DNA of 6,437 bases, from the IMG/VR virus record IMGVR_UViG_2740892124_000001. One strand, given 5' to 3'. The DNA is from a virus (taxonomy: Duplodnaviria; Heunggongvirae; Uroviricota; Caudoviricetes). The notes beneath the pieces were generated by a model that was not told the DNA's origin, ran no database searches, and saw only the letters and a program-made list of their open reading frames with translations. Shown piece by piece: positions 1-6,437 of the stretch. Positions within the stretch are counted from its first letter, which is position 1; the number at the start of each line of letters is the position of its first letter. A program made the position numbers and the translations under genes.

Positions 1-2461
<2,461 letters not shown>

Positions 2462-2481
<20 letters not shown>

Positions 2482-3781
2482 TCTCCCGCATATTGCCAGT
2501 ATGGCCTTTAATGAGCCGCTGATGCTTGAACCCGCCTATGCGCGGGTTTTCTTTTGTGCGCTTGCAGGCCAGCTTGGGATCAGCCGCCTGACGGATGCGG
2601 TATCCGGCGACAGCCTGACTGCCGGAGAGGCACCCGCGGCGCTGGCGTTATCCGTTGATGATGACGGACCACGACAGGCCCGCAGTTATCAGGTCATGAA
2701 CGGCATCGCCGTGCTGCCGGTGTCCGGCACGCTGGTCAGTCGGACGCGAGCGCTGCAGCCGTATTCGGGGATGACCGGTTACAACGGCATTATCGCCCGT
2801 CTGCAACAGGCTGCCAGCGACCCGATGGTGGACGGCATTCTGCTCGATATGGATACGCCAGGCGGGATGGTGGCAGGGGCATTTGACTGCGCTGACATCA
2901 TCGCCCGTGTGCGTGACATAAAGCCGGTATGGGCGCTGGCCAACGACATGAACTGCAGTGCAGGTCAGTTGCTTGCCAGCGCCGCCTCCCGACGTCTGGT
3001 CACGCAGACCGCCCGGACAGGCTCCATCGGCGTCATGATGGCTCACAGTAATTACGGTGCTGCGCTGGAGAAACAGGGCGTGGAAATCACGCTGATTTAC
3101 AGCGGCAGCCATAAGGTGGATGGCAACCCCTACAGCCATCTACCGGATGATGTCCGGGAAACACTGCAGTCCCGGATGGATGCAACCCGCCGGATGTTTG
3201 CACAGAAGGTGTCGGCATATACCGGCCTGTCCGTGCAGGCTGTGCTGGATACCGAGGCTGCAGTGTACAGCGGTCAGGAGGCCATTGATGCCGGACTGGC
3301 TGATGAACTTGTTAACAGTACCGATGCGATCACCGTCATGCGTGATGCACTGGATGCACGTAAATCCCGTCTCTCAGGAGGGCGAATGACCAAAGAGACT
3401 CAATCAACAACTGTTTCAGCCACTGCTTCGCAGGCTGACGTTACTGGCGTGGTGCCAGCGACGGAGGGCGAGAACGCCAGCGCTGCGCAGCCGGACGTGA
3501 ACGCGCAGATCACCGCAGCGGTTGCGGCAGAAAACAGTCGCATTATGGGGATCCTCAACTGTGAGGAAGCTCACGGACGCGAAGAACAGGCACGCGTGCT
3601 GGCCGAAACCCCTGGTATGACCGTGGAAACGGCCCGCCGCATTCTGGCAGTTGCACCACAGAGTGCACAGGCGCGCAGTGACACTGCGCTGGATCGTCTG
3701 ATGCAGGGGGCACCGGCACCGCTGGCTGCAGGTAACCTGGCATCTGATGCCGTTAACGATTTGCTGAACACACCAGTGTAA
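2462..3781 (+). CDS. C: Prohead (capsid assembly) protease gpC, S49/SppA-like serine peptidase (439 aa, GTG start)
   Basis: GTG 2462 with a strong SD; TAA 3779-3781. Product begins (M/V)TAELRNLPHIASMAFNEPLMLEP and carries S49-type motifs: GILLDMDTPGG, NCSAGQ (Ser166, codon 2957-2959) and SGSHK (Lys218, codon 3113-3115). It overlaps the B 3' end by 20 nt. The ORF-track start at ATG 2327 is rejected: no SD and a 155-nt overlap with B. Confidence 0.9.
3376..3382 (+). promoter_or_regulatory. Internal Shine-Dalgarno (AGGAGGG) for nu3, within C coding sequence
   Basis: AGGAGGG lies 3 nt upstream of the in-frame ATG 3386, the strongest internal RBS-like signal inside C. Confidence 0.6.
3386..3781 (+). 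CDS. nu3: Scaffolding protein gpNu3 (131 aa), nested in-frame in the 3' third of C
   Basis: In-frame ATG 3386 preceded by AGGAGGG; shares the C reading frame and stop (3781). Product begins MTKETQSTTVSATASQADV and is Ala/Gln-rich. Lambda Nu3 is established to be co-linear with the C-terminal part of gpC. An earlier in-frame ATG at 3176 has no SD and is less likely. Confidence 0.78.
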   Translation: MTKETQSTTVSATASQADVTGVVPATEGENASAAQPDVNAQITAAVAAENSRIMGILNCEEAHGREEQARVLAETPGMTVETARRILAVAPQSAQARSDTALDRLMQGAPAPLAAGNLASDAVNDLLNTPV

Positions 3782-3790
3782 GGGATGTTT

Positions 3791-4123
3791 ATGACGAGCA
3801 AAGAAACCTTTACCCATTACCAGCCGCTGGGCAACAGTGACCCGGCTCATACCGCAACCGCGCCCGGCGGATTGAGTGCGAAAGCGCCTGCAATGACCCC
3901 GCTGATGCTGGACACCTCCAGCCGTAAGCTGGTTGCGTGGGATGGCACCACCGACGGTGCTGCCGTTGGCATTCTTGCGGTTGCTGCTGACCAGACCAGC
4001 ACCACGCTGACGTTCTACAAGTCCGGCACGTTCCGTTATGAGGATGTGCTCTGGCCGGAGGCTGCCAGCGACGAGACGAAAAAACGGACCGCGTTTGCCG
4101 GAACGGCAATCAGCATCGTTTAA
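3791..4123 (+). CDS. D: Head decoration protein gpD (110 aa)
   Basis: ATG 3791 with SD TAAGGGA (3778-3784); TAA 4121-4123. Protein [27 protein letters not shown]...AGTAISIV matches lambda gpD in length and sequence, with possible minor substitutions. Confidence 0.92.
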
Positions 4124-4140
4124 CTTTACCCTTCATCACT

Positions 4141-4165
4141 AAAGGCCGCCTGTGCGGCTTTTTTT
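4141..4165 (+). terminator. Intrinsic-terminator-like hairpin in the D-E intergenic region
   Basis: AAAGGCCGC-CTGT-GCGGCTTTTTTT: a 5-bp GC stem (4145-4149 pairing 4154-4158) with a 4-nt loop, flanked by an A-tract upstream and a 7-T run downstream (4159-4165). It lies between the D stop and the E start. Confidence 0.4.
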
Positions 4166-4178
4166 ACGGGATTTTTTT

Positions 4179-5204
4179 ATGTCGATGTACACAACCGCCC
4201 AGCTGCTGGCGGCAAATGAGCAGAAATTTAAGTTTGATCCGCTGTTTCTGCGTCTCTTTTTCCGTGAGAGCTATCCCTTCACCACGGAGAAAGTCTATCT
4301 CTCACAAATTCCGGGACTGGTAAACATGGCGCTGTACGTTTCGCCGATTGTTTCCGGTGAGGTTATCCGTTCCCGTGGCGGCTCCACCTCTGAATTTACG
4401 CCGGGATATGTCAAGCCGAAGCATGAAGTGAATCCGCAGATGACCCTGCGTCGCCTGCCGGATGAAGATCCGCAGAATCTGGTGGACCCGGCTTACCGCC
4501 GCCGTCGCATCATCATGCAGAACATGCGTGACGAAGAGCTGGCCATTGCTCAGGTCGAAGAGATGCAGGCAGTTTCTGCCGTGCTTAAGGGCAAATACAC
4601 CATGACCGGTGAAGCCTTCGATCCGGTTGAGGTGGATATGGGCCGCAGTGAGGAGAATAACATCACGCAGTCCGGCGGCACGGAGTGGAGCAAGCGTGAC
4701 AAGTCCACGTATGACCCGACCGACGATATCGAAGCCTACGCGCTGAACGCCAGCGGTGTGGTGAATATCATCGTGTTCGATCCGAAAGGCTGGGCGCTGT
4801 TCCGTTCCTTCAAAGCCGTCAAGGAGAAGCTGGATACCCGTCGTGGTTCTAATTCCGAGCTGGAGACAGCGGTGAAAGACCTGGGTAAAGCGGTGTCCTA
4901 TAAGGGGATGTATGGCGATGTGGCCATCGTCGTGTATTCCGGACAGTACGTGGAAAACGGCGTCAAAAAGAACTTCCTGCCGGACAACACGATGGTGCTG
5001 GGGAACACTCAGGCACGCGGTCTGCGCACCTATGGCTGCATTCAGGATGCGGACGCACAGCTCGAAGGCATTAACGCCTCTGCCCGTTACCCGAAAAACT
5101 GGGTGACCACCGGCGATCCGGCGCGTGAGTTCACCATGATTCAGTCAGCACCGCTGATGCTGCTGGCTGACCCTGATGAGTTCGTGTCCGTACAACTGGC
5201 GTAA
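4179..5204 (+). CDS. E: Major capsid protein gpE (341 aa)
   Basis: ATG 4179 to TAA 5202-5204. Protein MSMYTTAQLLAANEQKFKFDPLFLRLFFRESYPF...DPDEFVSVQLA matches lambda gpE in length and sequence. The ORF-track extension to 4152 is a GTG inside the upstream hairpin and is rejected. Confidence 0.95.
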   Translation: MSMYTTAQLLAANEQKFKFDPLFLRLFFRESYPFTTEKVYLSQIPGLVNMALYVSPIVSGEVIRSRGGSTSEFTPGYVKPKHEVNPQMTLRRLPDEDPQNLVDPAYRRRRIIMQNMRDEELAIAQVEEMQAVSAVLKGKYTMTGEAFDPVEVDMGRSEENNITQSGGTEWSKRDKSTYDPTDDIEAYALNASGVVNIIVFDPKGWALFRSFKAVKEKLDTRRGSNSELETAVKDLGKAVSYKGMYGDVAIVVYSGQYVENGVKKNFLPDNTMVLGNTQARGLRTYGCIQDADAQLEGINASARYPKNWVTTGDPAREFTMIQSAPLMLLADPDEFVSVQLA

Positions 5205-5206
5205 TC

Positions 5207-5224
5207 ATGGCCCTTCGGGGCCAT
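5207..5224 (+). other. Perfect 7-bp stem-loop with UUCG tetraloop immediately after E stop
   Basis: ATGGCCC-TTCG-GGGCCAT is a perfect inverted repeat with a UUCG loop, starting 3 nt after the E stop. No long U-tract follows (TGTTTCTCTG), so it looks more like an RNA stabilising or processing element than a strong terminator. Confidence 0.45.
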
Positions 5225-5235
5225 TGTTTCTCTGT

Positions 5236-5242
5236 GGAGGAG
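5236..5242 (+). promoter_or_regulatory. Shine-Dalgarno for FI (GGAGGAG)
   Basis: GGAGGAG lies 3 nt upstream of ATG 5246. Confidence 0.6.
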
Positions 5243-5245
5243 TCC

Positions 5246-5644
5246 ATGACGAAAGATGAACTGATTGCCCGTCTCCGCTCGCTGGGTGAACAACTGAACC
5301 GTGATGTCAGCCTGACGGGGACGAAAGAAGAACTGGCGCTCCGTGTGGCAGAGCTGGAAGAGGAGCTTGATGACACGGATGAAACTGCCGGTCAGGACAC
5401 CCCTCTCAGCCGGGAAAATGTGCTGACCGGACATGAAAATGAGGTGGGATCAGCGCAGCCGGATACCGTGATTCTGGATACGTCTGAACTGGTCACGGTC
5501 GTGGCACTGGTGACGCTGCATACTGATGCACTTCACGCCACGCGGGATGAACCTGTGGCATTTGTGCTTCCGGGAACGGCGTTCCGTGTCTCTGCCGGTG
5601 TGGCAGCCGAAATGACAGAACGTGGCCTGGCCAGAATGCAATAA
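5246..5644 (+). CDS. FI: DNA packaging / head assembly protein gpFI (132 aa)
   Basis: ATG 5246 with a strong SD; TAA 5642-5644. Protein MTKDELIARLRSLGEQLNRDVSLTGTKEELALRVAELEEELDDTDE... has an acidic linker, and length and sequence match lambda gpFI. The upstream in-frame ATG 5207 sits inside the hairpin and lacks an SD. Confidence 0.9.
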   Translation: MTKDELIARLRSLGEQLNRDVSLTGTKEELALRVAELEEELDDTDETAGQDTPLSRENVLTGHENEVGSAQPDTVILDTSELVTVVALVTLHTDALHATRDEPVAFVLPGTAFRVSAGVAAEMTERGLARMQ

Positions 5645-5645
5645 C

Positions 5646-5651
5646 GGGAGG
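5646..5651 (+). promoter_or_regulatory. Shine-Dalgarno for FII (GGGAGG)
   Basis: GGGAGG lies 4 nt upstream of GTG 5656. Confidence 0.55.
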
Positions 5652-5655
5652 CGCT

Positions 5656-6009
5656 GTGGCTGATTTCGATAACCTGTTCGATGCTGCCATTGTCCGCGCC
5701 GATGAAACGATACGCGGGTACATGGGAACGTCAGCCACCATGACATCCGGTGAGCAGTCCGGCGCAGTAATACGTGGTGTTTTTGATGACCCTGAAAATA
5801 TCAGCTATGCCGGACAGGGCGTGCGCGTTGAAGGCTCCAGCCCGTCCCTGTTTGTCCGGACTGATGATGTGCGGCAGCTGCGGCGCGGCGACACGCTGAC
5901 CATCGGTGAGGAAAACTTCTGGATAGACCGGATTTCGACGGATGATGGCGGAAGCTGTCATCTCTGGCTTGGGCGTGGCGTGCCGCCTGCCGTTAACCGT
6001 CGTCGCTGA
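5656..6009 (+). CDS. FII: Head-tail joining protein gpFII (117 aa, GTG start)
   Basis: GTG 5656 to TGA 6007-6009. Protein MADFDNLFDAAIVRADETIRGYMGTSATMTSGEQSG...GVPPAVNRRR matches lambda gpFII in length and sequence. Confidence 0.9.
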   Translation: MADFDNLFDAAIVRADETIRGYMGTSATMTSGEQSGAVIRGVFDDPENISYAGQGVRVEGSSPSLFVRTDDVRQLRRGDTLTIGEENFWIDRISTDDGGSCHLWLGRGVPPAVNRRR

Positions 6010-6020
6010 AGGGGGGATGT

Positions 6021-6437
6021 ATGGCCATAAAAGGTCTTGAGCAGGCCGTTGAAAACCTCAGCCGTATCAGCAGAACGGCGGTGCCCGGTGCCGCCGCAAT
6101 GGCCATTAACCGCGTTGCTTCATCCGCGATATCGCAGTCGGCGTCACAGGTTGCCCGTGAGACAAAGGTACGCCGGAAACTGGTAAAGGAAAGGGCCAGG
6201 CTGAAAAGGGCCACGGTCAAAAATCCGCAGGCCAGAATCAAGGTTAACCGGGGGGATTTGCCCGTAATCAGGCTGGGTAACGCGCGGGTTGTCCTGTCCC
6301 GACGCAGGCGTCGTAAAAAGGGGCAGCGTTCATCCCTGAAAGGTGGCGACAGCGTGCTTGTGGTGGGAAACCGTCGTAAGCGTAAACTGACCGCCGTATG
6401 TAGCCATCAGACGAGAATTGGTAACTTAGACGCCCAT
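6021..6437 (+). CDS. Z: Tail completion/assembly protein gpZ, 5' part (runs off window); last ~20 codons do not match lambda Z
   Basis: ATG 6021 with SD AGGGGGG (6010-6016); frame open to the window end. Codons 1-119 (MAIKGLEQAVENLSRIS...SVLVVGNRR) match lambda gpZ apart from a few substitutions. From nt 6379 the translation (KRKLTAVCSHQTRIGNLDAH) differs from the lambda continuation I recall (IPGAFIQQLKNGRWHVMQRV...). Confidence 0.8.
   Translation, partial: MAIKGLEQAVENLSRISRTAVPGAAAMAINRVASSAISQSASQVARETKVRRKLVKERARLKRATVKNPQARIKVNRGDLPVIRLGNARVVLSRRRRRKKGQRSSLKGGDSVLVVGNRRKRKLTAVCSHQTRIGNLDAH

What the first reader, a model, noticed from the sequence alone, without database searches (positions are those of the whole stretch)
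6379..6437. Abrupt loss of lambda colinearity inside gene Z at the 3' edge of the window
Through nt 6378 the window is colinear with lambda (A through Z codon 119) with no indels. From 6379 the sequence AGCGTAAACTGACCGCCGTATGTAGCCATCAGACGAGAATTGGTAACTTAGACGCCCAT replaces what I recall as lambda ...CGTCGT-ATTCCCGGCGCGTTTATTCAGCAA... (gpZ ...GNRR-IPGAFIQQLKNGRWHV...). The encoded residues show no similarity to gpZ, so this is not a diverged Z allele. It looks like a non-homologous junction: an insertion (IS, transposon or cargo), a deletion end of a defective prophage, or an engineered or mosaic breakpoint. Z would be truncated or fused, and anything novel would lie beyond the window edge. I could not match the 59 nt to any IS terminus I know (IS1, IS2, IS3, IS4, IS5, IS10, IS30, IS50, IS186, IS911, Tn3, Tn7, Mu).
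Basis: partly seen in the sequence, partly recalled or inferred. Interest (0 to 1): 0.55.

Follow-up and report, generated by a model that had tools for sequence, protein, structure and literature searches.

The report
IS66-family insertion sequence end in prophage gene Z
The break in lambda similarity at the end of the window is the first 62 bases of a common E. coli insertion sequence (IS66 family, ISEc23/ISEc47 group) that landed in tail gene Z, and the sequence stops there only because a draft assembly broke inside this repeat, so the finding is ordinary.

Summary
Window 1-6378 aligns to lambda 1957-8334 at 98.0% identity with no gaps. It is 100% identical to a lambdoid prophage found in many complete E. 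coli genomes. After 6378 all similarity to Z is lost.

The replacing sequence is not novel. Window 6376-6437 (62 nt) is an exact prefix of a 2532-bp IS66-family element that RefSeq annotates as ISEc23 or ISEc47. The element begins with the family signature GTAAGCG. The tail sequence occurs in 2,559 of 5,426 complete E. coli genomes, up to 13 copies each, and on 1,248 plasmids.

The transposition joint lies between 6375 and 6376. GTA at 6376-6378 is shared with Z by chance, which is why the similarity appears to run 3 nt further. Z is cut at codon 119 of 192.

The window is an entire 6,437-bp contig (LSGU01000027.1, GCA_001640245.1), so the "edge" is an assembly break inside a repeat.

I could not retrieve the far side of the insertion. 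Simple insertion with the predicted 8-bp duplication AAACCGTC is strongly favoured, because all 10 full-length copies sampled have one. An IS-adjacent deletion or rearrangement is not excluded. Interest is low.

The parts
6021..6375 (+). 5' part of lambdoid tail gene Z: codons 1-118 plus the first base of codon 119. The intact gene has 192 codons.
   Evidence: Pfam Minor_tail_Z PF06763, profile positions 1-118 of 190, E = 8.8e-41. It is 100% identical to the intact Z of L003 and has 10 nt and 3 aa differences from lambda Z.
6368..6375 (.). Predicted target site AAACCGTC, expected to be duplicated at the other end of the IS.
   Evidence: This is an inference. All 10 full-length copies of the element sampled, and one ISCro1, are flanked by perfect 8-bp direct repeats immediately outside GTAAGCG...GCTTAC. 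The second copy is not in the window.
6376..6378 (.). GTA shared by chance between the IS terminus (GTAAGCG) and Z (CGT CGT ATT). It makes the lambda similarity appear to run to 6378.
   Evidence: Three-way comparison of the window, the empty site (L003) and the IS (L001).
6376..6399 (+). Left terminal inverted repeat (IRL) of the IS66-family element, GTAAGCGTAAACTGACCGCCGTAT.
   Evidence: It matches the right end at 20 of 24 positions in the reference copy L001:2998-5529. The IS66 family signature 'IR starting with GTAAGCG' is stated in PMC11946415.
6376..6437 (+). First 62 nt of a 2532-bp element of the ISEc23/ISEc47 group: IRL plus the untranslated leader. In reference copies tnpA starts 24 nt beyond the window end.
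   Evidence: It is an exact prefix of L001:2998-5529. Window 6379-6437 occurs at 7,258 places in 2,559 of 5,426 complete E. coli genomes, and window 6376-6437 in 1,248 plasmid records. It is followed by tnpA-tnpB-DDE transposase in L001, L003, L005, L009, L010, L016, L017 and L018.
6021..6437 (+). Z::IS fusion reading frame, 139 codons in the window. Read into the IS it would end 2 codons later, giving 141 aa with the tail KRKLTAVCSHQTRIGNLDAHLI.
   Evidence: Translation. The exact 139-aa contig-end product is in UniParc as UPI000AAD64D2, and the 141-aa read-through product is not in the collection.

Best explanation
An IS66-family insertion sequence of the ISEc23/ISEc47 group (2532 bp, tnpA-tnpB-DDE transposase) transposed into tail gene Z of a lambda-like prophage in one E. 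coli isolate. Its left end joins Z after window base 6375, and its genes point the same way as the phage late operon. IS66-family transposition creates an 8-bp target duplication, so the other end of the IS should read ...CGCTTAC|AAACCGTC|GTATTCCCGG..., followed by the rest of Z and then U, V and G. Z is cut at codon 119 of 192 and fused to 22 unrelated codons. The prophage therefore probably cannot make fully functional tails. The window stops 62 nt into the IS because it is a complete short-read contig and the assembler could not pass a multi-copy repeat. What is shown: the identity of the 62 nt, the exact terminus, the truncation of Z, and the contig-end status. What is inferred: the rest of the IS, the target duplication, the continuation of Z, and the phenotypic effect.
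For: The window from 6376 is a 62/62 exact prefix of the 2532-bp element L001:2998-5529. The tail sequence is multi-copy on chromosomes and plasmids. In reference copies it is followed by proteins matching HTH_Tnp_1, TnpB_IS66 (E = 1e-36) and DDE_Tnp_IS66 (E = 9e-98). The terminus GTAAGCG and the 8-bp duplication fit the published IS66 description (PMC11946415; PMC12888890). All 10 full-length copies sampled, at 9 independent sites, have perfect 8-bp duplications immediately outside the same first base. The empty site exists: Z is intact in prophages that are 100% identical to the window over 1-6378. The same prophage carries independent IS66-family insertions in A, in FI and at the FI/FII boundary in other strains. 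The window equals contig LSGU01000027.1, 6437 bp, and the partial Z product ending on the window's last base is a database entry.
Against: The right-hand junction was not found. Exact-pattern scans of genome contigs, viral contigs and metagenome contigs gave nothing. No complete E. coli genome has the left junction. So the target duplication and the continuation of Z are predictions, not observations. In 4 of 14 sampled copies the element is itself cut short by other mobile elements, so the copy here need not be complete. The 62 nt cannot separate ISEc23 from ISEc47.
Confidence: 0.85

Rival explanations
1. The IS end is genuine, but the structure is not a simple insertion. After insertion, or through intramolecular transposition or recombination between IS copies, the DNA to the right of the IS was deleted or inverted. 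In that case the rest of Z and some or all tail genes are missing or moved, and this is the deletion end of a defective prophage.
For: The right junction could not be found in any collection. E. coli genomes carry up to 13 places matching this sequence, which offers recombination substrates. In 4 of 14 sampled copies the element sits in IS-rich, rearranged contexts.
Against: All 10 full-length copies sampled keep a matched 8-bp duplication, so they are unrearranged simple insertions. The absence of the right junction is expected anyway, because the source draft assembly is not in the DNA collections I could scan.
Confidence: 0.12
2. The junction is an assembly chimera. A prophage contig was wrongly joined to an IS end that lies elsewhere in the genome.
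For: The contig is short, both of its ends are assembly breaks, and the genome very probably holds several copies of the IS.
Against: The join falls exactly on the first nucleotide of the IS, one position out of 2532. This is the signature of transposase action, not of a random misjoin. The shared sequence at the joint is only 3 nt (GTA), far below any assembler's word size. A contig that ends a fixed short distance inside a repeat is the normal outcome of correct de Bruijn assembly.
Confidence: 0.02
3. The junction is a mosaic recombination boundary with a different Z allele, a diverged Z, or an engineered construct.
Against: None of 91 matching phage records continues past 6378. The tail sequence is non-coding IS leader found upstream of tnpA in thousands of records. 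Pfam Minor_tail_Z matches only profile positions 1-118 of 190.
Confidence: 0.01

Closest known systems
ISEc23 / ISEc47 (IS66 family, names as used by NCBI PGAP in RefSeq)
   Same: The match to the left terminus is 62/62. Reference copies are 2532 bp with GTAAGCG...CGCTTAC ends, an imperfect IR of about 24 bp, an 8-bp target duplication, and tnpA, tnpB and an IS66 DDE transposase.
   Different: Only the first 62 nt are in the window, so the isoform (ISEc23 or ISEc47), the completeness and the right end of this copy are unknown. This insertion site in Z was not seen in any other genome or assembly searched.
Other IS66-family insertions in the same prophage: ISEc23 in A (strain 22272), ISEc23 in FI (strains DFK.1 and DFS.1), ISCro1 at the FI/FII boundary (strain 2020C08-115)
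   Same: The prophage backbone is the same, 100% identical over window 1-6378. The IS family is the same, each has an 8-bp duplication, and each disrupts a late structural gene.
   Different: The target sites differ (CAACACCC, GTCAGGCT, CGATAACC, against the predicted AAACCGTC). The FI copy is in the opposite orientation. These are independent events.
Lambda gene Z (NP_040590.1, minor tail protein, Pfam PF06763)
   Same: The first 119 codons are colinear, with 3 aa differences from lambda.
   Different: The C-terminal 73 residues are replaced by 22 IS-encoded residues.

Membership tests
IS66 family (ISEc23/ISEc47 group) | Terminal inverted repeat beginning 5'-GTAAGCG (PMC11946415) | tested here: met
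   Window 6376-6382 = GTAAGCG. The junction with Z falls exactly on this G.
IS66 family (ISEc23/ISEc47 group) | Sequence identity of the terminus to annotated copies of the element | tested here: met
   62/62 to L001:2998-3059. The same 62-nt left end is present in L003, L005, L009, L010, L012, L013, L016, L017 and L018.
IS66 family (ISEc23/ISEc47 group) | Multi-copy and mobile: many different flanks, on chromosomes and plasmids | tested here: met
   7,258 places in 2,559 of 5,426 E. coli genomes. 1,248 plasmid records in Escherichia, Klebsiella, Salmonella and Shigella. The flanks are distinct at every sampled site.
IS66 family (ISEc23/ISEc47 group) | Matching right inverted repeat (20-30 bp IRs) | not testable with these tools
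   The right end of this copy lies beyond the contig. In reference copies IRL and IRR match at 20 of 24 positions.
IS66 family (ISEc23/ISEc47 group) | 8-bp target-site duplication | not testable with these tools
   The predicted right junction CCGTTAACGCTTAC-AAACCGTC-GTATTCCCGGCGCG is absent from genome contigs, viral contigs and metagenome contigs. All 10 full-length reference copies have the duplication.
IS66 family (ISEc23/ISEc47 group) | Three ORFs: TnpA (HTH), TnpB (IS66 Orf2) and a DDE transposase (PMC12888890) | not testable with these tools
   They lie beyond the window for this copy. In reference copy L001 the matches are PF01527, PF05717 and PF03050 + PF13817 + PF13005 + PF13007.
Lambda gpZ / Minor_tail_Z (PF06763) | Full-length match to the family profile | tested here: not met
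   Only profile positions 1-118 of 190 are matched, at residues 3-120. The gene is truncated, not a diverged full-length allele.
Lambdoid mosaic boundary or alternative Z allele | The replacing sequence occurs at the same place in other phage genomes | tested here: not met
   Of 91 phage records, none extends past window 6378. No complete E. coli genome has the junction.

The most novel reading that the evidence does not exclude
The element in Z is not a plain 2.5-kb IS. It could be a passenger-carrying IS66 derivative (a 'tIS66') or the edge of an IS-bounded composite or deletion that removed the tail module and left a head-only prophage remnant. In that case the unseen DNA beyond the contig would hold cargo or an unusual prophage architecture.
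Probability: 0.05. Interest if true: 0.3.

Novelty: already known. Interest (0 to 1): 0.07.

Why it matters
It matters little beyond annotation. It identifies the unexplained 59 nt, places the joint 3 nt upstream of where sequence similarity suggests, and shows that this prophage copy has a broken tail gene and is probably defective. It is also a worked example of how a contig that ends a few dozen bases into an IS can look like a mysterious breakpoint. A minor population-level point is that the same widespread E. coli prophage has been hit independently by IS66-family elements in at least four late genes. This is consistent with routine IS-driven prophage decay.

Tried and rejected
1. I looked for the same junction elsewhere. 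It is absent from 5,426 complete E. coli genomes, genome contigs, viral contigs and metagenome contigs.

2. I looked for the predicted right junction and found nothing.

3. Strain 22272 appeared to cover the whole window (H91). This was an artefact of piece-joining: its ISEc23 sits upstream in gene A and its Z is intact.

4. I looked up the read-through 141-aa fusion protein and 11 other truncation lengths to find other assemblies with the insertion. Only the 139-aa contig-end form exists.

P0002 turned out to be a different Z truncation.

6. I hoped that a 74-aa 'partial tail protein' (P0035) was the C-terminal half of Z starting at the insertion site. It is an N-terminal fragment.

7. A junction-specific protein from the downstream contig cannot exist, because the IS right end has an in-frame stop 17 codons before the joint.

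8. I tried to explain the 5' contig end by a repeat or a mosaic boundary. The region is single-copy in the complete genomes shown that carry the 100%-identical prophage, and no homology boundary appears at window position 1.

9. No paper mentions the assembly accession. The IS679/IS66 paper of Han et al. 2001 is not held.

10. Rfam gave no hits in the window.

Full report
**Observation**

The last 538 bases of the window were compared with 50,697 phage records. All 91 matching lambda-like records align from window 5900 to 6378 and stop there.

A direct alignment gives window 1-6378 = lambda NC_001416 1957-8334, with 126 mismatches, 0 gaps and 98.0% identity. So the "colinear with lambda, no indels" part of the finding holds.

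The window is even closer to a prophage found in many complete E. coli genomes, at 100% identity over 1-6378. In one of these (strain 22272, locus L003) gene Z is intact, so it serves as an empty-site reference. Window and reference have no mismatch up to 6378 and then 49 mismatches in the last 59 bases.

**What the replacing sequence is**

The 59 nt at window 6379-6437 occurs at 7,258 places in 2,559 of 5,426 complete E. coli genomes. Genomes that have it carry a median of 2 places and up to 13, on chromosomes and plasmids. The 62 nt at window 6376-6437 occurs in 1,248 plasmid records from Escherichia, Klebsiella, Salmonella and Shigella.

In annotated records the sequence lies 24 nt upstream of an operon annotated as IS66-like accessory protein TnpA, IS66 accessory protein TnpB, and an IS66-like transposase of the ISEc23 family. 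In some genomes the transposase is labelled ISEc47 family instead.

In locus L001 the element is 2532 bp. It is bounded by GTAAGCG...CGCTTAC, with an imperfect inverted repeat of about 24 bp (20 of 24 matched), and is flanked by the 8-bp direct repeat GCCTGTTC. Its three proteins match these Pfam families:
- HTH_Tnp_1.
- TnpB_IS66, E = 1e-36.
- DDE_Tnp_IS66, E = 9e-98, plus the IS66 zinc-finger, leucine-zipper and C-terminal domains.

The published family description agrees. IS66 has 20-30-bp terminal repeats starting GTAAGCG and makes 8-bp direct repeats (PMC11946415). Classic members carry TnpA, TnpB and a DDE transposase (PMC12888890).

**Exact position of the joint**

The window from G6376 to the end is an exact 62-nt prefix of the element. 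The element's first three bases, GTA, happen to equal the next three bases of Z (CGT CGT ATT). This is why similarity to lambda seems to run to 6378.

The joint made by the transposase is therefore 6375|6376. The predicted target site is AAACCGTC (6368-6375). Z is interrupted after the first base of codon 119 of 192. Read into the IS, the frame gives a 141-aa product with 22 foreign residues. Pfam sees only positions 1-118 of the 190-position Minor_tail_Z profile.

The IS genes point in the same direction as Z.

**Why the sequence stops there**

The 139-aa product that ends on the window's last base is a database entry (UniParc UPI000AAD64D2). The 141-aa read-through product is not in a collection of about 15 billion proteins.

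The 225-aa partial terminase that starts at the window's first complete codon is WP_162780554.1, recorded on one contig of 6437 bp. The look-up returns NCBI contig LSGU01000027.1 of assembly GCA_001640245.1, which is identical to the window.

So the window is a whole contig of a draft genome, and its 3' end is an assembly break inside a multi-copy repeat. A 62-nt overhang is what a de Bruijn assembler with k = 63 would leave. That is my inference, because the record's method could not be read.

**Simple insertion or something more?**

The other side of the insertion could not be retrieved.
- The left junction is absent from all complete E. coli genomes and from the three scannable contig collections.
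- The predicted right junction is absent from the three contig collections too.
- Eleven other truncation lengths of the fusion protein, chosen to match other assemblers' overlaps (including Logan's k = 31), are also absent.
- The event therefore looks private to one isolate.

To set a prior, I sampled 14 copies that carry the exact 62-nt left end in complete genomes. Ten are full length (2511-2532 bp), and all ten, at nine independent sites, have perfect 8-bp duplications. Four are cut short by later insertions of other elements. An ISCro1 copy also has an 8-bp duplication.

I therefore put about 0.85 on a simple insertion, with the rest of Z and the tail genes following the IS. I put about 0.12 on an IS-associated deletion or rearrangement.

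A misassembly is very unlikely. The join is on the first nucleotide of the element, and the shared sequence at the joint is only 3 nt.

**Consequences (inferred)**

From established lambda biology, gpZ is needed for fully active tails. Loss of its C-terminal 73 residues should therefore leave this prophage unable to make normally infectious particles.

All other genes on the contig are open, with few differences from lambda: the end of A, then W, B, C, D, E, FI and FII.

**Comparison with what is known, and novelty**

This is a known IS family, a known element group and a known consequence (IS disruption of a prophage gene). Only the particular site is new, and trivially so.

The same prophage has independent IS66-family insertions in other strains:
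- ISEc23 in A, duplication CAACACCC.
- ISEc23 in FI, duplication GTCAGGCT, opposite orientation.
- ISCro1 at the FI/FII boundary, duplication CGATAACC.

**Verdict**

The novelty class is "already known" and interest is low.

Noticed in passing
window 1-3 (5' contig end, inside terminase gene A, = lambda 1957): The 5' end of the window is also a contig end. An independent Logan assembly (SRR11463834_451, L008) starts only 2 nt further in. Yet window 1-400 is single-copy in the complete genomes shown that carry the identical prophage, and no homology boundary was seen at this position. Records at 99% identity or more fall from 975 (window 1-400) to 424 when 300 nt upstream are included, which hints that the upstream part of A is more variable. 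The cause of the recurrent break is unexplained.
   Followed up: partly
L003 6002-8533; L005 (minus-strand copy, window ~5302-5309); L006 6175-8865 (window 5667-5674): The same prophage, 100% identical to window 1-6378, carries independent IS66-family insertions in other strains. They are ISEc23 in gene A (strain 22272), ISEc23 in FI (dolphin strains DFK.1 and DFS.1), and ISCro1 at the FI/FII boundary (strain 2020C08-115). Each has a perfect 8-bp duplication. The late structural region of this prophage seems to be hit repeatedly by this IS family.
   Followed up: partly
L009 and L018 (3886-5499) versus L001, L003, L005, L010, L016, L017: The identical 62-nt left end is followed by transposases that PGAP names 'ISEc47 family' in some genomes and 'ISEc23 family' in others. 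The ISEc47-labelled copies differ from the L001 copy at 48-49 of 2532 positions. So the terminus alone cannot assign the isoform.
   Followed up: partly
L001 1636-2997 and 5529-5789: In strain 214-4 the ISEc23 copy is nested inside another IS66-family transposase gene (ISEc43-like), with duplication GCCTGTTC. That record has 11 places matching the left-end sequence.
   Followed up: no
L003 3125-3418: The reference prophage that matches the window carries the serum-survival gene iss between the lysis genes and the packaging genes. This is a known lambdoid cargo position and is not part of the window.
   Followed up: no
window 5501-6000 and 2501-3000: Differences from lambda are unevenly spread. 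There are 23 and 20 mismatches in these 500-nt bins, against 2 per bin across 4001-5500. FII has 19 differences in 354 nt and E has 5 in 1026 nt. This is ordinary lambdoid patchiness.
   Followed up: no
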